Assembly (NCBI GenBank): GCA_044225915.1
Contig: JBGAHZ010000028.1
Coordinates: 24,524-88,523, forward strand
Length of the DNA stretch: 64,000 nt
Source of the DNA: Candidatus Obscuribacteraceae bacterium
GTDB lineage: Bacteria; Cyanobacteriota; Vampirovibrionia; Obscuribacterales; Obscuribacteraceae
Direction of reading: 5' to 3'
Shown here: positions 27,331 to 37,474 of the stretch, in pieces
Numbering within the stretch: position 1 is the first letter of the stretch
How the letters are laid out: each line of letters starts with the position of its first letter
Notes under the pieces: generated by a model
What the model saw: only the letters and a program-made list of their open reading frames with translations
Databases searched by the model: none
Told to the model about the DNA's origin: nothing
Made by a program: the position numbers and the translations under genes

Positions 27331-30300
27331 CTAGTCGTTCGAGTTTATAGTTACGCCGGAGTTTTTACTGCCCAGAGTGAGGCTGGCCAGCTTATTTCCA
27401 TTGTTTATTCTTACGCTGGTTGGAGCTGTTCCGGTCAAGTTGATGGTTTGAGTTTTGGAGGACGCAAAGCCGTTGCCCGTTAACAGTACGTTGCCTGATA
27501 CGTTGACGTTCGATGTCGGCGTGAATGTGTTCACCAAAGTCGGTCCGAGGGAGATGGTTATGTCGCCTGTGGGACCAGATGATATGTCGCGATCGACAAT
27601 CATCTTGCCTTTGGTGCTGGAATTCGTCACGGTCACATGACCACCAGCGACCAGACCCTGAGAAATAGACAGCGTTCCTGCGTTTGTGGTTATGTCTATA
27701 TCATTGGACACCGATAGCGGTGATGAACCCTCGAGTTTAAGCGAACCATTCGCGGTTATAGCAGCTTGAGCCGCCGCTTTTGTGTTTTCCAGAATAGTGC
27801 CTTTGGGTGCAAGGCAGTTCAGGAATAGCGGACCAAATTTCGCTTGTGCTGTGACCTTAGGCACAGCTACGTTGAACGGATTCACCGACGTACCAATAGC
27901 AATATCGGCTAGTAGCGAGAGCTGTTTTGTGGTCACTGTACCGCCAAACAAGGAGTTTAAAAGGCTTCCGGCTGTTGTGAATCGGGCCTCGTCGGTTGCG
28001 GTCACATCCTGAAACGAGACAAGGTTTGCTGCAGTCACGTCGAAGGACTTGCTGAGGATTGAACCCGTTGCTGTAATATCGCGATCGGCGGCTGTAATGG
28101 AAACCTCCGCCTTCTGAGCGGTGATTTGAGCGATGTTTAGCGCTCCTGGCGACCCGGTGTTGACCTGAATGTTCACGCCGGTTCCACCGCATTCAGCCAA
28201 TAGAGATGGCGCGATGATGTTCAAAGGATCCGACGACGACCCGATTTCCTTGCCTGCGAACAACTGTATTTGAGTTGCAGAGGTGATTGGCGGTGGTCCA
28301 CCGCCATCCTTGATTTCGGTTCCAGCCGAGAGGATAACCAGTTGATTGGCGTTGATCGCGCCTTGTACGTACAGCTCCCGTCCAGCGGATGCTTGAAATG
28401 TTGTTGTCGAGTTGATTGGACCGGCAATGACTAGATCGGCATTTCTATTGAGTTTTTCCGCGCCAGTGAGAAAGGAAGTGCTCGTTCTACTTCCATCCGC
28501 TGCGTAAACGATGGGTACTTTTTTGTTGCTGGAGACTACGTCGGATGTTCTAATTGAGATGGAACCTTCGACCCCGGAGCTACCGCCGGTGGTGCTCAAC
28601 GTACCGGTTCTCACTGCTTCAGATTGAGCTTTTGACGCTCCTCCCACTATATTGATAAACCCATTAAAACCTGTGCCGCTTCCACCAGTACTGATAGTGC
28701 CATTGGTAGTATCAATAGTGCCGCCGCCTTGTCCATCAGTCCCTCTTCCGTCGAAAGCAAATAGACTTACGTTGCCCCCGTTGGTATTACCCGAGGTATC
28801 AGTCGCGCGTGCCAGAATACTGGAGCCGGCGTCCATTTGGATGTTGCCCCCGGTTTTAGAACTCTTGCCTGACAACGTCACAATCCCTGCGTCAGCAGGC
28901 AACGCGGGAAGAGTTGATTTGTTGTTGCCACCTTGATTTGTAAAATCAGCTCCCGCGATTAGCGTGATATCGAAGCCTTTCGAGCTTGCATCGCCGGCGC
29001 TGACGGTAACCCCGCTCTGTATCTCGATATTGGAGGTTGAAACTACTACCAGTGCTTCTGCAACGCTAACGTTTCCTGTGATAGTTATGTCCCCATTCCG
29101 ATTGAAAAACGTAGGGTCGCCCGTCAAGCACACGCTTCCTAGTTGGAGATTATCCGTGCTGGCAATTACGTGCGCTGCACTTCCAGTCTCATTGATAATG
29201 CCAGTGACTTGATTGACATCAGCAAATGCTGTCCCCATGCCGGAGTTTAGATTGAATTGTTTGCTAAATAAATCGCCGCCGATGATCTTGCTGTCGAATG
29301 CTCCGTTGTAATCACTCTCTCGTAAATTGACGGCGCCGTTGAGGGCGCTGATAACTCCATGCTGGTTGTTCACAACAAGTGCCGCGTCTGATGCTCCACG
29401 CAAGTTGACGTTGCCTGCAGTTGAAGCAATCGACCCGTGGTTGTTGACATTGGGAGCGGCAAAACTGAGATCTTTAGCCGCAGTGATCGAACCGTAGTTG
29501 TTTACGGTATTTCCCGCTGTCAGCGTCAAACCGGCGGATGAAGCGATTGTACCGGCATTGCTCAATGTTCCCGAAGCATCAAGAGTTAGATCGATGTTGG
29601 AGTTAATCGTTGCGCCACGGAAGTTGTTGATATCGTCAGCGTGAATGGCTCCCTGTCTGGCGTTGCTGCTGCCTGACAGAGCAAGTACCGTTCCGAAGTT
29701 ATTCAAATCACCTAACAATCTGAAGTCGGAGCGCCTGGAGAAGTCACCACTGGTGGTGACGTTATTTGCTACTACCAGGTTGGCAGCTCGCATAACGTCA
29801 TGATCGCCGGTTATGGCGTCAAGGTTGACATTGCCACCTATGGCGCGACCGCTGCGGTCGACGATTAGTTTTTGTCCATCGCCCGAAAGTGCTTGTTTAA
29901 CAGCAATGTATTCCGCTGCTGTCACCTGGCTGCCGGCAGTGACAGTTTTAGTGCCTTCGCCTGATGTGATTTCGACAGAATCATGAGTGGCAAACAGGTT
30001 TTTGCCGAGTGTAATGTTTCTAGAATTCGAGGTCAGATCAAGATCCAGTCCGCTCTTCAGTTTTACGATGTCGCCCGAGACATTAATCTGGTTTGTTCTT
30101 GCGCGCAAATGATCCAGCATGTTCTGATTGCCGATTCGAGCGGCTCGCAGATCGGCATGACGGTTACTGGATGGCTGCACTATGCTGGCCGCGGGAAGTT
30201 TGTTCTGGCGATCGTTACTCTCGCGGAACAGCGCTCGGGCTGCGTGACGTTCTATGCTGGGATTTTGCAGTCTGAACTCTTTGAAGTTCGAGTGATTGTG

Positions 30301-30393
30301 ACCGGCGTAGGCCGATGAAGTAGTCGCAAGCAGGAGTGTTCCTGCTAAGAAAGATGCTGATTTCAGCGTGACCTTAAGAGCTCGATACTGCAT
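27331..30393 (-). CDS. Large secreted beta-helix repeat protein (adhesin/hemagglutinin-like, about 1020 aa)
   Basis: Signal peptide (…LLLATTSSAYA) followed by about 1000 aa of Gly/Asn/Thr/Ser-rich degenerate repeats (…GNVNL…, …GTIASSAGLTLTAGNTVNNYGSITAA…), typical of parallel beta-helix adhesins. Confidence 0.55.
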   Translation of the reverse strand: MQYRALKVTLKSASFLAGTLLLATTSSAYAGHNHSNFKEFRLQNPSIERHAARALFRESNDRQNKLPAASIVQPSSNRHADLRAARIGNQNMLDHLRARTNQINVSGDIVKLKSGLDLDLTSNSRNITLGKNLFATHDSVEITSGEGTKTVTAGSQVTAAEYIAVKQALSGDGQKLIVDRSGRAIGGNVNLDAITGDHDVMRAANLVVANNVTTSGDFSRRSDFRLLGDLNNFGTVLALSGSSNARQGAIHADDINNFRGATINSNIDLTLDASGTLSNAGTIASSAGLTLTAGNTVNNYGSITAAKDLSFAAPNVNNHGSIASTAGNVNLRGASDAALVVNNQHGVISALNGAVNLRESDYNGAFDSKIIGGDLFSKQFNLNSGMGTAFADVNQVTGIINETGSAAHVIASTDNLQLGSVCLTGDPTFFNRNGDITITGNVSVAEALVVVSTSNIEIQSGVTVSAGDASSKGFDITLIAGADFTNQGGNNKSTLPALPADAGIVTLSGKSSKTGGNIQMDAGSSILARATDTSGNTNGGNVSLFAFDGRGTDGQGGGTIDTTNGTISTGGSGTGFNGFINIVGGASKAQSEAVRTGTLSTTGGSSGVEGSISIRTSDVVSSNKKVPIVYAADGSRTSTSFLTGAEKLNRNADLVIAGPINSTTTFQASAGRELYVQGAINANQLVILSAGTEIKDGGGPPPITSATQIQLFAGKEIGSSSDPLNIIAPSLLAECGGTGVNIQVNTGSPGALNIAQITAQKAEVSITAADRDITATGSILSKSFDVTAANLVSFQDVTATDEARFTTAGSLLNSLFGGTVTTKQLSLLADIAIGTSVNPFNVAVPKVTAQAKFGPLFLNCLAPKGTILENTKAAAQAAITANGSLKLEGSSPLSVSNDIDITTNAGTLSISQGLVAGGHVTVTNSSTKGKMIVDRDISSGPTGDITISLGPTLVNTFTPTSNVNVSGNVLLTGNGFASSKTQTINLTGTAPTSVRINNGNKLASLTLGSKNSGVTINSND

Positions 30394-30938
30394 AACACTT
30401 TAACCCCGCATGAGAATGCTGGCCGCTGCTGCTTTTCAAGTGCAACAGTCCAGTCGGACGTCAGGTTAGCATGTCTGGCGCTATGCGGTTGATATCCTTC
30501 CGATTGGTTCGAAAATTTCTACGCTTCAAATTGATTTAGACTCGTCAAAACCGTTAACGCAACGACTGGTAGCGAGAACTTGCGCTAACTTTTCTCTTTT
30601 CGGAGTCATGGCCGGATGGATGTTTTGGGACGCAAGGCGCACCTCGGGCGAACGTTAGTTCGATTCAACGTACGAGGATCTTTACAACCGTAGTTTTGAT
30701 ATTCGGCAGTATCCGAATATCAATTCAGCTTTTCCTCTTTCCTTTCTGTGGTACCCGAAACCCTTATCCGTTCGACCAACCGACTTCTCCACTCAATAGC
30801 GCGGCGCGCTCGGGGAAGTTCGGATGTTGGTTTACAGGGGCGAAGGACTGCAAAGGAGTGAGAACGGCTTGCATCGTAAACGCGAGATTCGCCATTTCGG
30901 CGAAAACGCAAAACCTCTGTACAAAGGTAAAACACTCT

Positions 30939-33062
30939 ATGGTCCAAGATCTGCTGAATTTCGTTTGGTTGGTGCCGGTGGTCGTCATCGCACTTCCGGT
31001 CCTGTTCTGGCTGTTCATGAGCATCAAGAACATCGGTTCGTCCGAAATCGCCATCACCGAGCGCCGCTACTTCGGTAAGGCGCTGGAAGCCGGTCGCGCT
31101 TTCGCTCTCAACGGTCAAGTCGGCATCCAGGCTGCTTACCTGGCGCCCGGGCTCAAGTTCCTGCTGTACCCGGTCGTTCGCATCGCCGAACGCGTCAAGT
31201 TCGTCGTCGTCGGTCCCGACCAGCTCGGCATCGTCACCGCCACGGATGGCGAATCCATGCCCCACGGCCGCATCTTGGCCGAGGACAAGGCCGGCGAACA
31301 TCACGACAACTTCCAGAATCCGGAGGGCTTCCTCCGCAATGGTGGTGTCCGTGGTGAGCAGCTCCGCTTCCTGACCAACGGTCAGTTCAAGCTGCACCCC
31401 CGCCTGTTCAACATCCGTCTGATCGAGAAGACCCGCATTCCGGACGGCAAGGTCGGCGTCGTGTACGCTGCCGACGGCGCCTCGCTGGCCGCCGGTCAGC
31501 TCGTCGGTCGCGCGGTCGAAGGTCACGACAACTTCCAGAAGGCCGAGGTCTTCCTGAAGAACGGCGGCCAGAAGGGTCCCCAGGTCGACATCCTGCGTCC
31601 GGGTACCTACAACATCCACACCGGCATGTTCCGCGTCGACATCCGCGATGCGGTCACTGTCGCTGACGGCCAGATCGGCGTCGTCGAAGCGCTCGGCGGC
31701 TCTCCGATGCCCAAGGGCGACGTCATCGTCGACAGCCCCGAAGGTCACCAGAACTTCCAGGACGGCGAAGCCTTCCTGAAGGCCAACGGTATGCGTGGTC
31801 CGCAGACGGCGATTCTCGCCCCGGGTCGCTATTACATCAACCCCTACCTGTTCACGGTGTCCGCCAAGCCGCAGACCATCGTCAAGCAGGGTGAAGTCGC
31901 CGTCCTGATCGCCAACCACGGCAAGGACCCGTCCGAAGACCTCTCGCCGTTCGACAACAACGGACCGGTCGAGGGCAACGCCACCGACGCCGAGGAATCG
32001 CGCCTCAACGCCGGCAATCGCACCCGTCACGTCGTGTCGGCCGGCTACCGCGGTATCCAGAAGGACACCCTCGGGCCGGGTCGCTACAACGTCAACCCGC
32101 TGATGTACCAGGTCGTCATCGTGCCGACCACCACGCGCTCGCTGCACTGGGCGGCCGAGACCGGCGAGAAGGCGTCGACGGCGTTCGATCCGTTCGAGGT
32201 CGTCTCCAATGACGGCTTCCCGATGAAGGTCGAAGTGCGCTGCCAGTACCGCGTCCTCCCCGAGAACGCGCCCTACGTCATCGCCAAGCTGGGCTCCATC
32301 CAGGAGCTGGAGATCAACGTCATCCACCCGCAGATCGACGGCATCTTCCGTGCCGAGGTCTCCAAGTCGCCGGCGATCGCGTACCAGCAGACGCGCGCCG
32401 ACGAGCAGAAGAAGGCCGAGCAGGAAGTCCGTGCCGACCTCGCCAAGTACAGGGTCGAGGTGGTCTCGGTCATGATCACCAACATCCACCTGCCCGAGCA
32501 GCTCATGCAGACGACGCAGGAGAAGAACCTGGCCGAACAGCGCAAGTCGATGTACGACGCGCAGGAAGCCGCGGAAAAGCGTCGTATCGAGTTCGAGCAG
32601 ACCAAGGCTCGTGCCGACCAGCAGTCCGAGATCATCAAGGCGCAGACCGGCATCGAAGTGGCCGAGCACAAGGCGAACCAGAAGATCAAGGAAGCGCAGG
32701 GTGAAGCCCAGCGCATCGAGCTGACCGCCGCCGCCAACGCCAAGCGCACGCGCCTGGAAGGTGAAGCGGAAGCCGCCGCCACGCTCGCCAAGGGTGAAGC
32801 GACCGGCGCCGCCTACCGCAAGCAGGTCGAAGCCATGGGTCAGACGGGCGTCACGCTCGTCGAGGTCATCGAGCGCATCTCCGCCAAGGGCCTGCGCATC
32901 ACTCCGGACATCATTGCCGGCGGTGGCGCCAACGGCGAAGGTGGCAACATCGGCTCGGTGATCACGGCGCTGCTCACCCAGCAGCTCCTGGCCAAGCCGG
33001 AAGCCGCCGCTCCGACCACGACCGCTCCGGCGCCGACCCCGGCCGCCGGCGAGAAGAAGTAA
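30939..33062 (+). CDS. Flotillin-like (SPFH/band-7) membrane protein with a triplicated N-terminal module and an EA-rich coiled-coil
   Basis: N-terminal TM. Three roughly 85-aa repeats carry HDNFQ…FL(K/R)NGG…PG(T/R)Y…LF motifs. The C-terminal Glu/Ala/Gln/Lys-rich coiled-coil (…AEQEVRADLAKY…EAQRIELTAAANAKRTRLEGEAEAA…) resembles YqiK/flotillin. Confidence 0.5.
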   Translation: MVQDLLNFVWLVPVVVIALPVLFWLFMSIKNIGSSEIAITERRYFGKALEAGRAFALNGQVGIQAAYLAPGLKFLLYPVVRIAERVKFVVVGPDQLGIVTATDGESMPHGRILAEDKAGEHHDNFQNPEGFLRNGGVRGEQLRFLTNGQFKLHPRLFNIRLIEKTRIPDGKVGVVYAADGASLAAGQLVGRAVEGHDNFQKAEVFLKNGGQKGPQVDILRPGTYNIHTGMFRVDIRDAVTVADGQIGVVEALGGSPMPKGDVIVDSPEGHQNFQDGEAFLKANGMRGPQTAILAPGRYYINPYLFTVSAKPQTIVKQGEVAVLIANHGKDPSEDLSPFDNNGPVEGNATDAEESRLNAGNRTRHVVSAGYRGIQKDTLGPGRYNVNPLMYQVVIVPTTTRSLHWAAETGEKASTAFDPFEVVSNDGFPMKVEVRCQYRVLPENAPYVIAKLGSIQELEINVIHPQIDGIFRAEVSKSPAIAYQQTRADEQKKAEQEVRADLAKYRVEVVSVMITNIHLPEQLMQTTQEKNLAEQRKSMYDAQEAAEKRRIEFEQTKARADQQSEIIKAQTGIEVAEHKANQKIKEAQGEAQRIELTAAANAKRTRLEGEAEAAATLAKGEATGAAYRKQVEAMGQTGVTLVEVIERISAKGLRITPDIIAGGGANGEGGNIGSVITALLTQQLLAKPEAAAPTTTAPAPTPAAGEKK

Positions 33063-34683: not shown

Positions 34684-35394
34684 AAGTCGTGTATCTAGGG
34701 CGTGGTTGGGATTGACTACGCGAGGTATCAAATACGGTCGGCACATGCCACCATATTTGATACCTCGTGTTCTAATTGCTAATACTAGCCGATATCGTAA
34801 AATTGGATTCGAAATGGGCTTAAATGTGGCGGGAGAATTTTAACCGTTTCGATTTTATGGAGTGCGTTCTCGCGCGAGTAAGGGTTAGCGCGAGGTTGCA
34901 CGGTATGTTACGGTACTCTCAGCTTGCGGAAACCACCACGAATAACGTCCGTGCTCCAATTTCAAATCGCCTAAATTATGGGTTTAAGCCTCCCTCTGGT
35001 TTTTATCATGAACTTTGGATATTGCTTAGCTTTGTTCTCTTCTGTCATGGTCAAAGTATCTTTTATTTTCTTATAGCAGGACCGCAGAAGCCGACCAAGA
35101 CACCCACCACGATTACATTTGCGTTTGCAGTGAACATCGCTGAGTGTCGTGTGCCGAAGTCTGCGGATTTGCTTGAGAGAATGAAAGTGGCGCAAGCGAA
35201 GAGTATTCGCGTGTGTCGGGTGAGGGCAATTAGAACTAGCCTTCTATCGGGTTGGGGGAAAGCGTAAAAACTTTCTCGGCCCGTGGTCCCACCTGCAGAG
35301 ACTGGGAAGTAGACCTCACGGTCTTCTTCGGTCTTTCTGCTCCCAATTAACCACGTCGGCGCAAGCCGATAAACCATAAAACCGGAGCTGAAAG

Positions 35395-35853
35395 ATGACA
35401 AACAACATTCCTGCAAATCCCACACCACAGGCGTTAAACGCCAACTCGAAAATCGGCGAAATCTTGATCGCACTTGGTTTCGCAACACAGCAAGGAGTCG
35501 ATGACACCTTCGCATACCAGCAAGCCGAACGCGGCAAGGGCAACAATCCTGGTCTGATCGGTGAGCTGTTCGTGCAACGCGGAGTTTGCACTGCCGAACA
35601 ACGCGACATCGGCATGAAGGTTCAGAGCCTGCTCAAGAGGCTTTCCAGAAGTCTCAAGAGCTCATCAACCTGGATTCCGAAGCGAGGATCGGCAAGATTC
35701 TCATCGCCTTCGGGCATGCTACCGCCGACGCGGTGGAAGCGACGTTCGCCTGGCAATCTGCTGAGCGTGCCGCTGGACGTGACCCTGGTCTCATCGGGGA
35801 ACTCTTCGTCCAGCGTGGCGTTTGCTCTGCTGAGCAGCGGGACTTCGGCATGA
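35395..35853 (+). CDS. MshEN/T2SSE_N-like small protein, copy 1. The conserved part ends near 35640 and the rest is an out-of-frame read-through of copy 2
   Basis: GGAG RBS. KIGEILIALGFATQQGVDDTFAYQQ and LIGELFVQRGVCTAEQRDIGMKVQ each fit the 24-residue MshEN c-di-GMP-binding motif RLGxxLLxxGLLxxxxLxxxLxxQ. Confidence 0.4.
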   Translation: MTNNIPANPTPQALNANSKIGEILIALGFATQQGVDDTFAYQQAERGKGNNPGLIGELFVQRGVCTAEQRDIGMKVQSLLKRLSRSLKSSSTWIPKRGSARFSSPSGMLPPTRWKRRSPGNLLSVPLDVTLVSSGNSSSSVAFALLSSGTSA

Positions 35854-35879
35854 AGATTCAGGGCTTGCTGCGTCGCTAG
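35586..35879 (+). CDS. MshEN/T2SSE_N-like small protein, copy 2, in frame -1 relative to copy 1
   Basis: RIGKILIAFGHATADAVEATFAWQ and LIGELFVQRGVCSAEQRDFGMKIQ repeat the two motifs of copy 1. Its first 14 codons overlap the end of copy 1 in another frame. Confidence 0.35.
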   Translation: MHCRTTRHRHEGSEPAQEAFQKSQELINLDSEARIGKILIAFGHATADAVEATFAWQSAERAAGRDPGLIGELFVQRGVCSAEQRDFGMKIQGLLRR

Positions 35880-36078
35880 TCACGACGCGATGTTCGAGTA
35901 ACTGCAGTCAACAGGCGGGGAAGGGCATCCTTCCCCGCTTGTTGTTTTGAATCTTTTGATACTAGGGTGAGTAGTAGCATGGCGGTCAAAACAAAAGGCA
36001 CTAAATATGGTGGCAGCAATTGGATCGCCACAAGCACGAGGCTCGTGACGATCCAAGCTGATGAATTGCCGAAACAAC

Positions 36079-36516
36079 TTACTCCGGCTGCAGATCGATG
36101 ATGGCGCCCGGTTCCTTCTCGATGACGAGCGAAAGGTCGGACGTGATGATGCGAGAGCCGGCTTTGGCTCGGATCTTGCAGCCGTCATAGGCCTCGACCG
36201 TTGAGCCGTTTTCGGCGATTACCAGCGAGCCGCTTTCGGCCATGACCGACGAGCCTTTCTTGGCGTTGACGATCGAACCTGCGTAGGCGTTCACTTTCGA
36301 TCCGTCGAGAGCGTCGACGATGGACTGAGCGTAGGCATCGACGGTGGAACCGCGTTCGGCCTTCACGCTGGAGCCGTAGACCGCGACGAGGTGGTCGCCG
36401 CTTTTGGCGGTGACTTGCGGACCAGGATCGGCGATCTTCATCGGACCGGCGAATGCTGCCCCGGCTACGCAGAGGCTGAGAGCGCCTGCGAGGGCGAAAT
36501 GTCGAAAAGATTTCAT
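36079..36516 (-). CDS. Secreted beta-solenoid-like repeat protein (about 146 aa)
   Basis: Start at MKSFRHFALAG with an AGGAAAT RBS. Signal peptide. Repeats of about 9-10 aa of the form (V/I)xAxxGSxV. Confidence 0.45.
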   Translation of the reverse strand: MKSFRHFALAGALSLCVAGAAFAGPMKIADPGPQVTAKSGDHLVAVYGSSVKAERGSTVDAYAQSIVDALDGSKVNAYAGSIVNAKKGSSVMAESGSLVIAENGSTVEAYDGCKIRAKAGSRIITSDLSLVIEKEPGAIIDLQPE

Positions 36517-36895
36517 GGCTTGAAATTTCCTGTTCTGAAGGACAAAACCCGATGTTTTGCCCATGCTTCTATCGTTGCAGGACGTGCACGTCGAAACACA
36601 CCAGTGGCCTGGCATGATGACGTGCACGTCGCAAACAACAGGCTGGCTCCGCAAGAACAGCGCTTCAATCCTGAGAACCACCGGTGGTGCCGGTAGCAAT
36701 CGAGACGGAATCGCAGCACTCCTTGTCGGAGCCAGCCTTACTCACTGTGACGCTAAAAGCCGCGCGCCAAGGTAAATCTGAACGTTATTTGCGTTCCGAG
36801 GTAAAGTCACGCATCCAGGGCGGTCGGTCAGGCGGATGAATTTCATCCGGCAAGAACCGCACCTGATTCGTGGCAAGGCTCGGAGTCAAGAACGA

Positions 36896-37474
36896 CTAGT
36901 GCTCGTCGTGGCCGTTCTGGCTGGAACCGCAGTTCCTGCAGATGCCGCCCTGTTTCACCGGCGTTTCGCAGTTCCAGCAGTCGCGAGCGGTGTCGAGGCT
37001 GCGGGCGTCGGTGGTGAATCGGGCGGGCTTGACGGTGGCGTCGACGAGGCTCAGGTGCGAGCTGTACCGGGAGCCGAAGTCCTGCGCTTCCAGGAGGTGG
37101 AATTCGTAGGTGGCAACGACTCGGTCGTTCGGTCCGCCGTCGCGGAACATGACGGTGAAGTTGCGGGCAGGACCCTCTTCCACGTCAGGTTCGCTGGTGC
37201 TCAGGCGGAATGACGGGAAGAGACTGCGCTTGGGAGCAGCCTTCTTCTTCCTCGTCAGGAGGGGAGCGAGCTCGAACTTCGTCGTCTCCGGCTTGACCTC
37301 GACGGCCAGGACGACTTCTTCATCGATCTTGACTTGCATGAACGCATTACGGCTGACCGAGACCGCCAGGTGGGAATCACTGACATCGGGCAAACACACG
37401 TTACGAGTGGTCGCCTGAATGAACGTCTCGGCCGGCAATTGTTCTGAACCGGTCAGAACGGTACAGTAGATCAT
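36896..37474 (-). CDS. Hypothetical protein with a C-terminal CxxC…CxxC zinc-ribbon
   Basis: The C-terminus reads CWNCETPVKQGGICRNCGSSQNGHDEH. Confidence 0.35.
   Translation of the reverse strand: MIYCTVLTGSEQLPAETFIQATTRNVCLPDVSDSHLAVSVSRNAFMQVKIDEEVVLAVEVKPETTKFELAPLLTRKKKAAPKRSLFPSFRLSTSEPDVEEGPARNFTVMFRDGGPNDRVVATYEFHLLEAQDFGSRYSSHLSLVDATVKPARFTTDARSLDTARDCWNCETPVKQGGICRNCGSSQNGHDEH

What the first reader, a model, noticed from the sequence alone, without database searches (positions are those of the whole stretch)
35395..35879. Tandem duplicated stand-alone MshEN-like (putative c-di-GMP-binding) mini-genes with a frame break between the copies
Two roughly 70-aa modules in tandem each contain two consecutive matches to the 24-residue MshEN motif RLGxxLLxxGLLxxxxLxxxLxxQ. 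These are KIGEILIALGFATQQGVDDTFAYQQ plus LIGELFVQRGVCTAEQRDIGMKVQ in module 1, and RIGKILIAFGHATADAVEATFAWQ plus LIGELFVQRGVCSAEQRDFGMKIQ in module 2. Module 2 is in frame -1 relative to module 1. The first ORF therefore runs on as a nonsense Ser-rich tail, and the second ORF begins with 14 out-of-frame codons. MshEN/T2SSE_N domains normally occur as N-terminal domains of GspE/MshE ATPases, so free-standing double-motif proteins would be unusual small c-di-GMP receptors. The frame break could be a real pseudogenising mutation, a -1 slippage site, or a sequencing indel in what is really one four-motif protein.
Basis: partly seen in the sequence, partly recalled or inferred. Interest (0 to 1): 0.65.

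Follow-up and report, generated by a model that had tools for sequence, protein, structure and literature searches.

The report
One frameshifted tandem MshEN-like gene
This is a single small gene, broken in this assembly by one missing G, that encodes two copies of the helical domain other bacteria use to sense the signalling nucleotide cyclic di-GMP; it is an unannotated but not unprecedented kind of putative receptor.

Summary
There are four MshEN-type half-motifs in two ~70-aa modules, and module 2 lies in the -1 frame.

It is one gene, not two mini-genes. Every homologue encodes a single 147-163-aa ORF. These come from near-identical metagenome contigs, Ca. Obscuribacterales MAGs and one Drouetiella MAG. 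Four contigs that are ~99.7-99.8% identical differ from the window by one extra G (CTCAAGGAGGCT vs CTCAAGAGGCT, window 35637/35638). There is no slippery site. The break is therefore a recent strain-level mutation or a consensus error, and only reads can decide.

The repaired 161-aa protein models confidently (pLDDT 91) as two four-helix bundles.
- A module profile hits PilF (E 1e-7) and MshE (E 1e-3).
- NCBIfam's MshE-related c-di-GMP motif model scores at its threshold. Pfam finds nothing.
- The Gly and Gln ligand-contact positions are conserved.
- Two features deviate: an 11-residue spacer, and Arg where Leu is expected in the second half-motifs.

The stand-alone (MshEN_N)2 architecture was already catalogued in 2016 and never tested. 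c-di-GMP binding is probable (~0.55) but unproven.

Side finding: a conserved ~175-nt structured leader sequesters the ribosome-binding site.

The parts
35218..35394 (+). Conserved, structured 5' leader of the gene
   Evidence: It is 76-85% identical in six distinct variants (window, L018, L005, L012, L009, L010) that sit in different gene neighbourhoods, and it contains long invariant blocks. RNAalifold gives a consensus of 52 pairs, 7 of them with compensatory changes. The MFE is -68.5 kcal/mol, z = -2.9. There is no Rfam match.
35331..35343 (+). Anti-Shine-Dalgarno strand GUCUUUCUGCUCC
   Evidence: It pairs with 35384-35396 in the MFE and in the consensus structure, and is invariant in all 6 variants. 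When the SD is forced free, it pairs instead with the invariant block GCAGAGAC at 35295-35302, at a cost of 7.4 kcal/mol.
35384..35396 (+). Shine-Dalgarno GGAG (35384-35387), spacer, and the first two bases of the start codon, sequestered in the leader helix
   Evidence: Pairing probability is above 0.99 for GGAG in the ensemble. The only variable base (U to C in L018) is the unpaired bulge position.
35395..35637 (+). 5' part of the gene in frame 1: Met1-Lys81, containing MshEN_N-like module 1 (residues ~14-82)
   Evidence: It is identical to intact P0001 over residues 1-81.
35449..35520 (+). Module 1, half-motif I (K19-Q42)
   Evidence: It fits the relaxed MshEN motif of Wang et al.. The HMM alignment places it on MshE Arg38-Gln61 and PilF 167-190.
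35554..35625 (+). Module 1, half-motif II (L54-Q77). Leu at position 1, Cys at 12, Arg at 17
   Evidence: It aligns to MshE Arg9-Gln32. Gly3, Gly10 and Gln24 are kept.
35637..35638 (+). Site of the 1-nt deletion: one G of CTCAAGGAGGCT is missing
   Evidence: It is the only indel against L001-L004: 2392 bp with 3 mismatches and 1 gap. Every homologue reads ...SLLKEA... in one frame.
35637..35879 (+). 3' part of the gene in frame -1: Glu82-Arg161 plus stop TAG (35877-35879), containing module 2 (residues ~93-161)
   Evidence: The translation is identical to P0001 residues 82-161. There is one synonymous difference, GCT vs GCG (third base at 35831).
35685..35756 (+). Module 2, half-motif I (R98-Q121)
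   Evidence: His at position 11 in this lineage, Phe/Asn in relatives.
35790..35861 (+). Module 2, half-motif II (L133-Q156)
35638..35853 (+). Out-of-frame Ser-rich tail of the listed ORF1. A consequence of the deletion, not a domain
   Evidence: It has no counterpart in any homologue.
35909..35948 (+). Intrinsic terminator: 16-bp stem, GCAU loop, U-run
   Evidence: It lies 30 nt after the frame -1 stop and is conserved in L001/L002.

Best explanation
Window 35395-35879 is one monocistronic gene, not two.

**Gene product.** In its intact form it encodes a 161-aa soluble protein made only of two tandem MshEN_N-type four-helix bundles. Each bundle is built from two 24-residue helix-turn-helix half-motifs. 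The gene belongs to a small, unannotated family found mainly in Candidatus Obscuribacterales (non-photosynthetic relatives of cyanobacteria).

**Frame break.** In this assembly one G is missing at 35637/35638. Translation from the start codon therefore gives module 1 plus a nonsense tail. I slightly favour a genuine strain-level mutation (~0.55) over a consensus error (~0.45).

**Likely function (inferred).** Each bundle binds one extended c-di-GMP across its two half-motifs, as in MshE and PilF GSPII-B.
- Backbone amides at the conserved Gly3 and the conserved Gln24 side chains would contact the ribose-phosphate.
- Lys/Arg or Leu at position 1 and the hydrophobic positions 2, 17 and 21 would sandwich the guanines.

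The protein has no output domain, so it would act as a small adaptor whose partner binding depends on ligand occupancy. I put the probability that at least one module binds c-di-GMP at about 0.55.

**Likely regulation (inferred).** Expression is probably controlled at translation by a conserved leader that base-pairs the Shine-Dalgarno sequence.

**Shown:** gene structure, the deletion, the homology, the fold, the residue conservation, and the leader's conservation and pairing potential.
**Inferred:** ligand, stoichiometry, adaptor role, and the leader acting as a switch.
For: **Single gene and the deletion**
- Seven homologues at E<=1e-3. Six are single ORFs of 155-161 aa. The seventh is the window's own truncated ORF.
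- Further intact members include one seen on 15 contigs.
- Intact four-motif ORFs occur in L006, L007 and L013.
- The DNA alignment with four independent contigs differs by one G and one synonymous base inside the gene. Over the 2392 bp shared with L001 there are 3 mismatches and this one gap.
- A terminator sits directly after the second frame's stop.
- Large neighbouring genes are intact: AcrB of 1068 aa, TldD and PmbA.

**MshEN_N identity**
- NCBIfam NF053729 'c-di-GMP_motif, MshE-related' scores 32.6-43.3 bits in family members against a cutoff of 38. It matches 61 of 63 distant relatives found with the family profile.
- The single-module profile against PDB sequences gives PilF E=9.9e-8 and V. 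cholerae MshE E=1.4e-3. All 9 hits are MshEN/GSPII/PilB proteins.
- AlphaFold2: pLDDT 91, pTM 0.82, eight helices as 2 x (short-long-short-long).
- Foldseek: 8pdk at rmsd 1.3 A over 63 columns.

**Ligand-site residues**
- Across 18 modules, Gly3 of both half-motifs and Gln24 of motif II are invariant.
- Position 2 (Ile) and Gly10 of motif I and Gln24 of motif I are nearly invariant.
- Gly3 and Gln24 are the polar c-di-GMP contacts in MshE (PMC5013675).
- The Lys (motif I) and Leu (motif II) at position 1 are the same combination as in PilF GSPII-B. That domain binds c-di-GMP about 83-fold tighter than MshEN, and it led its authors to extend the consensus to (R/K/L)LG... (PMC11731258).
Against: - No binding data exist for this family, nor for any stand-alone cyanobacterial MshEN_N protein (PMC12448109; PMC5013675 Suppl. 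Table 6).
- The spacer between half-motifs is 11 residues, not 5.
- Position 17 of both second half-motifs is a conserved Arg (EQRD). MshE has Leu54 and PilF has Leu211 there, part of the hydrophobic platform under the second guanine. Mutating these conserved hydrophobic residues lowered affinity more than 10-fold in MshE.
- Pfam's MshEN model does not match.
- GSPII-A shows that a near-consensus domain can still fail to bind (PMC12002112).
- No GGDEF, HD-GYP or PilZ signature was found in the 64-kb window.
- The gene neighbourhood is not conserved, so no partner can be inferred.
- Whether the deletion is real cannot be settled without reads.
Confidence: 0.75

Rival explanations
1. The fold is MshEN_N-like but the site is degenerate. 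The protein binds no nucleotide and acts only as a protein-protein interaction scaffold, like the XpsE N-domain or PilF GSPII-A.
For: - Arg replaces the platform Leu at position 17 of both second half-motifs, Cys sits at position 12, and the spacer is 11 residues.
- XpsE lost binding through changes at key positions (PMC5013675).
- GSPII-A does not bind even after its consensus is restored (PMC12002112).
Against: - The residues that make the polar ligand contacts (Gly3 and Gln24 in both half-motifs) are invariant or nearly so across 18 modules from proteins as low as ~35% identical. That is hard to explain without a ligand.
- The best structural matches are the ligand-bound binders.
- K/L at position 1 is the high-affinity GSPII-B pattern.
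- The 'QRD' variant recurs in 82 of 678 half-motifs of relatives, so it is a maintained variant rather than decay.
Confidence: 0.3
2. The protein is a receptor, but for another nucleotide (3'3'-cGAMP, c-di-AMP or a linear dinucleotide). The conserved Arg at position 17 and the longer spacer would re-shape the second base pocket.
For: - MshEN itself also binds cGAMP (PMC5013675, section heading seen).
- The deviations cluster in the half-site that holds the second base.
Against: - There is no direct evidence.
- The first half-site is canonical in both modules.
- All characterised MshEN_N domains are c-di-GMP receptors.
Confidence: 0.1
3. Two separate free-standing ~70-aa mini-genes, each encoding one MshEN_N module.
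For: - Free-standing single-module relatives of 83-94 aa do exist. One 85-86-aa family occurs in Ca. Obscuribacterales (P0011/P0161).
- ORF1 as it stands would still produce an intact module 1.
Against: - Module 2 has no start codon or SD of its own. The listed TTG at 35586 lies inside module 1 and is out of frame.
- All orthologues are one ORF.
- The only difference from near-identical contigs is one missing G.
Confidence: 0.03
4. Programmed -1 ribosomal frameshifting joins the two frames in this organism.
For: A -1 shift exactly at G35637 would restore the full-length protein.
Against: - There is no X XXY YYZ slippery heptamer at CUC AAG AGG.
- Contigs ~99.7-99.8% identical, and all other relatives, encode the protein in a single frame. 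The shift is therefore not conserved.
Confidence: 0.02

Closest known systems
MshEN_N subdomain of V. cholerae MshE (PDB 5HTL; Wang et al. 2016, PMC5013675)
   Same: - Four-helix bundle made of two 24-residue half-motifs.
- Gly3, Gly10 and Gln24 and the hydrophobic positions 2, 6, 7 and 21 are conserved.
- The isolated MshEN_N subdomain (residues 1-62/65) binds c-di-GMP on its own (KD 0.35 uM), so a protein made only of this subdomain can in principle be a receptor.
   Different: - No MshEN_C subdomain and no ATPase.
- Two bundles in tandem.
- An 11-residue rather than 5-residue spacer.
- Position 1 is Lys/Arg (motif I) and Leu (motif II) instead of Arg/Arg.
- Position 17 of motif II is Arg instead of Leu54.
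- Not recognised by Pfam PF05157.
GSPII-B domain of Thermus thermophilus PilF (PDB 8PDK; PMC11731258)
   Same: - Best sequence match: full-length PilF (PDB 6F8L), E 9.9e-8.
- Lys at position 1 of motif I and Leu at position 1 of motif II, as in module 1 here.
   Different: - GSPII-B is an internal domain of a 900-aa ATPase and has a C-terminal subdomain.
- It has the short canonical-type spacer (EKTGD).
- It keeps Leu211 at position 17.
Stand-alone (MshEN_N)2 proteins of Cyanobacteria, e.g. Cyanothece cce_1044 (ACB50395), listed in Wang et al. 2016 Suppl. Table 4
   Same: - Same architecture: about 145-160 aa, two MshEN_N modules and nothing else.
- Cyanobacterial lineage in the broad sense.
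- Ligand binding untested.
   Different: - No detectable sequence relationship beyond the motif (hhalign probability 0.7%).
- cce_1044 second half-motifs end in GW..Q.T.DFF and lack Gln24, whereas this family keeps Gln24 and has the WQ.AER...PG linker and EQRD signature.
Stand-alone PilZ-domain c-di-GMP adaptors (known to me from the literature; not examined here)
   Same: The concept is the same: a small receptor without an output domain that would act through ligand-dependent partner binding.
   Different: Unrelated fold (beta-barrel) and unrelated binding motifs. The analogy is functional only and rests on inference.

Membership tests
MshEN_N c-di-GMP-binding domain (MshE/GSPII N-terminal subdomain) | Four-helix bundle fold (alpha1-alpha4) | tested here: met
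   [not shown]
MshEN_N c-di-GMP-binding domain (MshE/GSPII N-terminal subdomain) | Significant sequence similarity to characterised MshEN domains | tested here: met
   The module profile gives PilF E 9.9e-8 and MshE E 1.4e-3, with all 9 PDB hits in the family. NCBIfam NF053729 scores 38.3 bits for P0001 against a cutoff of 38, i.e. borderline. Pfam PF05157 gives no hit.
MshEN_N c-di-GMP-binding domain (MshE/GSPII N-terminal subdomain) | First 24-residue half-motif (R/K/L)LGxxhhxxGhhxxxxLxxxLxxQ | tested here: met
   K19-Q42 fits fully. R98-Q121 fits except for His at position 11.
MshEN_N c-di-GMP-binding domain (MshE/GSPII N-terminal subdomain) | Second 24-residue half-motif with the same key residues | tested here: inconclusive
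   Leu1 (allowed by the extended consensus), Gly3, Gly10, Met21 and Gln24 are present. Position 17 is a conserved Arg instead of Leu, and position 12 is Cys.
MshEN_N c-di-GMP-binding domain (MshE/GSPII N-terminal subdomain) | Five-residue spacer between the two half-motifs, giving a 53-residue unit | tested here: not met
   The spacer is 11 residues (Q43-G53 and S122-G132). Alpha2 is extended by one turn and followed by a conserved ..G..PG loop.
MshEN_N c-di-GMP-binding domain (MshE/GSPII N-terminal subdomain) | Binds c-di-GMP | not testable with these tools
   This needs ITC, DRaCALA or MST on purified protein.
Stand-alone (MshEN_N)2 proteins (cce_1044 type) | Architecture: two MshEN_N modules and no other domain | tested here: met
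   The protein is 161 aa, has two modules, and is followed by a terminator.
Stand-alone (MshEN_N)2 proteins (cce_1044 type) | Sequence relatedness to cce_1044 | tested here: not met
   hhalign probability 0.7%, E 0.08. The cce_1044 sequence was taken from an OCR'd supplement with 5 unknown residues.
MshE/GspE/PilB secretion ATPases | T2SSE ATPase domain C-terminal to MshEN | tested here: not met
   The ORF ends at 35879 and the terminator is at 35909-35948. There is no ATPase in Pfam or NCBIfam scans.
Programmed -1 frameshift genes | Slippery heptamer at the shift site, and a shift that is conserved in relatives | tested here: not met
   The site is CUC AAG AGG. All relatives are in one frame.

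The most novel reading that the evidence does not exclude
Two readings are not excluded.

1. The conserved ~175-nt leader (35218-35394) may be an undescribed riboswitch-type translational switch that controls a cyclic-dinucleotide receptor. Its SD-sequestering helix and an alternative helix are both formed by invariant blocks.
2. The 'EQRD / 11-residue spacer' MshEN_N variant may define a receptor subclass with altered ligand specificity or binding geometry in non-photosynthetic cyanobacteria.
Probability: 0.15. Interest if true: 0.65.

Novelty: new member of a known kind. Interest (0 to 1): 0.33.

Why it matters
- PilZ and MshEN are two of the few c-di-GMP receptor domains that are widespread. 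Cyanobacterial MshEN-type proteins have not been tested for binding (PMC12448109).
- This family is annotated only as 'hypothetical protein' and is missed by Pfam. It gives a minimal, soluble, two-site MshEN_N protein from the Obscuribacterales.
- It could serve two purposes. It is a candidate receptor in a lineage with no characterised second-messenger effectors. It is also a natural test of how far the motif tolerates a longer spacer and a Leu-to-Arg change in the guanine platform.
- For annotation, the practical message is that the two ORFs should be merged, or flagged as one frameshifted gene.

Tried and rejected
- **Pfam scan** of each module and of the fused protein at E<=10: no hit.
- **Synteny**: neighbours differ between relatives. 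The window has Band_7 upstream and PNP downstream. L005, L010 and L011 have tyrS upstream, and L010/L011 have adk downstream. L009 is different again. No operon partner can be named.
- **Signature search** for GGDEF, HD-GYP and PilZ in the window's six frames: none. This says nothing about the rest of the genome.
- **Assembly quality**: I checked whether the assembly is generally indel-ridden. Overlapping same-strand ORF pairs turned out to be complete separate genes: TldD/PmbA and AcrB/HlyD.
- **Arg-relocation hypothesis**: the idea was that the Arg missing from position 1 had moved to position 17 (an Arg/Leu swap around the second guanine). In 678 half-motifs of retrieved relatives, Arg/Lys at position 17 occurs both with and without Arg/Lys at positions 0/1 (33/381 vs 49/297). 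That set is biased by the query. I dropped this as a claim.
- **Relation to cce_1044**: none detectable.
- **Rfam** on the window (gathering thresholds) and on the leader (E<=10): nothing.
- **Metagenome and genome scans** for more relatives gave only 2 and 4 loci, so the covariation statistics for the leader stay weak.
- **AFDB fold library** was unavailable.
- **The look-up of encoding contigs** for the window's own 152-aa ORF: not on record.

Full report
**1. What is in the sequence**

The region holds a 152-aa ORF (35395..35853) and, one frame back, an open frame that ends at TAG 35877-35879.

The two ~70-aa modules are 78% identical as DNA and 64% as protein. A core half-motif pattern hits three times in the six-frame translation of the whole 64-kb window, all three here. 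Shuffled windows give a mean of 0.18. Under the stricter published 'relaxed' motif of Wang et al., only the first half-motif passes.

**2. The frame break is a single missing G in one gene**

A search with the two frames joined returned seven proteins. Six are single ORFs of 155-161 aa: one at 99% identity, three at 81-82%, and two at 50-52%. The seventh is the window's own truncated ORF, from an NCBI record with a 103-kb contig. The 90% cluster of the closest one holds three more intact variants, one of them seen on 15 contigs.

Four independent metagenome contigs align to the window at 99.7-99.8%.
- Inside the gene they differ by one synonymous base and one extra G (CTCAAGGAGGCT against CTCAAGAGGCT).
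- Over the 2392 bp shared with the longest contig there are three mismatches, and this is the only gap.
- G35637 is therefore both the third base of Lys81 in frame 1 and the first base of Glu82 in frame -1.

Other points bear on how to read the break.
- Nothing resembling a slippery heptamer is present, and no relative carries the shift, so programmed frameshifting is not needed and not supported.
- Module 2 has no start codon or ribosome-binding site of its own.
- A 16-bp-stem terminator with a U-run follows the second frame's stop by 30 nt.
- Large neighbouring genes are intact (AcrB 1068 aa, TldD, PmbA), so the assembly is not generally indel-ridden.
- Module 2 shows no decay.

The deletion is thus either very recent or an error. 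I cannot decide without reads, and I lean slightly towards a real allele.

**3. What the protein is**

Pfam gives nothing, even at E<=10. NCBIfam's 53-position model NF053729 ('cyclic di-GMP-binding domain-containing protein, MshE-related') scores 38.3 bits on the intact protein against a cutoff of 38. It scores 32.6-43.3 bits across the family members tested.

A full HMMER scan of 1.84 billion representatives with the family profile found 304 proteins at E<=1e-3 but only 3 at E<=1e-30, so the family proper is small. Of 63 more distant hits, 61 match NF053729, 39 match the MshEN region of NfrB, 39 match EpsG and 16 match PilB. Pfam labels those hits mostly DUF4388/PATAN, 'FumaraseC_C' and FapA, and labels only one as MshEN.

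A profile of 18 single modules hits PDB sequences of T. thermophilus PilF (E 9.9e-8) and V. cholerae MshE (E 1.4e-3). All nine hits are MshEN/GSPII/PilB proteins.

AlphaFold2 on the six-sequence alignment gives pLDDT 91 and pTM 0.82, with eight helices arranged as twice short-long-short-long.
- Foldseek superposes one module on 8pdk at 1.3 A over 63 columns.

The MshEN_N assignment is therefore supported by both sequence and fold.

**4. Forms and distribution**

Relatives occur in Ca. Obscuribacterales and Obscuribacteraceae MAGs, a Melainabacteria MAG (partial) and one Drouetiella MAG. All those read through are intact four-motif ORFs.

Free-standing single-module proteins of 83-94 aa also exist. 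One 85-86-aa family is named from Ca. Obscuribacterales and seen on 45 contigs. More distant relatives carry the module inside multidomain proteins. All source names are 'hypothetical protein'.

**5. Does it keep the ligand site?**

In MshE the polar contacts to c-di-GMP come from the backbone at the motif's third-position Gly and from the terminal Gln. The guanines are sandwiched between the first-position Arg and Leu clusters formed by positions 2, 17 and 21 (PMC5013675).

What is kept, across the 18 modules:
- Gly3 of both half-motifs and Gln24 of motif II are invariant.
- Position 2 (Ile), Gly10 and Gln24 of motif I are nearly invariant.

Position 1 is Lys or Arg in motif I and Leu in motif II. 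That is the combination found in PilF GSPII-B (K167, L196). GSPII-B binds c-di-GMP about 83-fold more tightly than MshEN, and its authors extended the consensus to (R/K/L)LG... (PMC11731258).

What deviates:
- The spacer is 11 residues instead of 5. Helix 2 is a turn longer and is followed by a conserved Gly..Pro-Gly loop.
- Position 12 is Cys.
- Position 17 of both second half-motifs is a conserved Arg in the signature EQRD. MshE has Leu54 and PilF has Leu211 there.

The QRD variant is not peculiar to this family. It occurs in 82 of 678 half-motifs among the retrieved relatives. I tested whether this Arg compensates for a missing position-1 Arg; the association is weak, so I dropped the idea.

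GSPII-A shows that near-consensus domains can be non-binders (PMC12002112). Isolated MshEN_N (residues 1-62/65) binds on its own with KD 0.35 uM. Weighing these, I put c-di-GMP binding by at least one module at about 0.55.

**6. Context and regulation**

Neighbours are uninformative and not conserved. No c-di-GMP turnover signatures occur in the window.

The ~175 nt upstream of the start codon is conserved in six variants that sit in different neighbourhoods, and it contains long invariant blocks. The consensus fold has 52 pairs, 7 of them with compensatory changes. It includes a variable hairpin with UUCG or GCAA loops and a GNRA hairpin.

The block GUCUUUCUGCUCC (35331-35343) pairs with GGAGCUGAAAGAU (35384-35396), that is, with the Shine-Dalgarno sequence and the start of the AUG. 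The single variable base in that helix is the bulged one.

The window's leader folds at -68.5 kcal/mol (z = -2.9), with the SD paired at p > 0.99. If the SD is forced open, the anti-SD pairs with another invariant block, GCAGAGAC (35295-35302), at a cost of 7.4 kcal/mol.

No Rfam family matches. This looks like a translational switch. Its trigger is unknown, the covariation evidence is thin, and one variant (L012) breaks a pair in the variable hairpin.

**7. Comparison with what is known, and verdict**

Wang et al. 2016 already list '(MshEN_N)2' as an architecture, with the example Cyanothece cce_1044. They did not test it, and a 2025 paper states that cyanobacterial MshEN domains remain untested. 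The present family has the same architecture but no detectable relationship to cce_1044 beyond the motif.

My verdict on each part of the finding:
- The finding is a new, unannotated member of a known kind of receptor domain.
- The 'mini-genes' reading is wrong.
- The frame break is a trivial 1-nt deletion.
- The c-di-GMP receptor reading is reasonable but unproven.
- The leader RNA is the most unexpected thing at the locus.

Noticed in passing
window 35218-35394 (+); also L018:4915-5100, L005:7876-8060, L012:291-475, L009:7843-8003, L010:7822-8003: A conserved, structured ~175-nt 5' leader lies upstream of the gene. A 12-bp helix between two invariant blocks sequesters the SD and the start codon. 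An alternative helix (GCAGAGAC with the anti-SD) forms when the SD is freed. There is no Rfam match. The leader is absent upstream of the 43-50%-identity homologues.
   Followed up: partly
proteins P0011/P0161 (MBX9942170.1, OPZ85385.1); not in the window: Ca. Obscuribacterales also carry a free-standing single-module paralogue of 85-86 aa, seen on 45 contigs. It has the same EQRD signature but a shorter linker (GRSLLIG).
   Followed up: partly
window 36079-36699 (-): The downstream neighbour is conserved in L001 and L018-L021 (145-157 aa called there). It has an N-terminal hydrophobic, signal-like segment followed by ~11-residue repeats of the type GS.V.A..GS.V.A, which suggests a beta-helix or beta-roll. 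It has no Pfam hit.
   Followed up: no
window 36896-37474 (-): A conserved 192-aa ORF, also found in L001 and L018-L020, has a C-terminal CxxC...CxxC zinc-ribbon-like motif (CWNCETPVKQGGICRNCG). It has no Pfam hit.
   Followed up: no
window 34824-35267 (+): This 147-aa ORF is called as a 168-176-aa gene in L018, L020 and L021. Its last ~50 nt overlap the conserved leader. It has no Pfam hit and an unconvincing composition. The leader also occurs without this ORF (downstream of tyrS in L005 and L010), so the overlap may be incidental or the ORF may be spurious.
   Followed up: partly
window 30696-33062 (+) and 27331-30393 (-): A 788-aa Band_7/SPFH protein has a ~450-aa N-terminal extension. Next to it is a 1020-aa ORF with no Pfam hit. 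In relative L009 the corresponding neighbour of the Band_7 gene is a 1026-aa Pkinase-Sel1 protein.
   Followed up: no
[not shown]
   Followed up: partly
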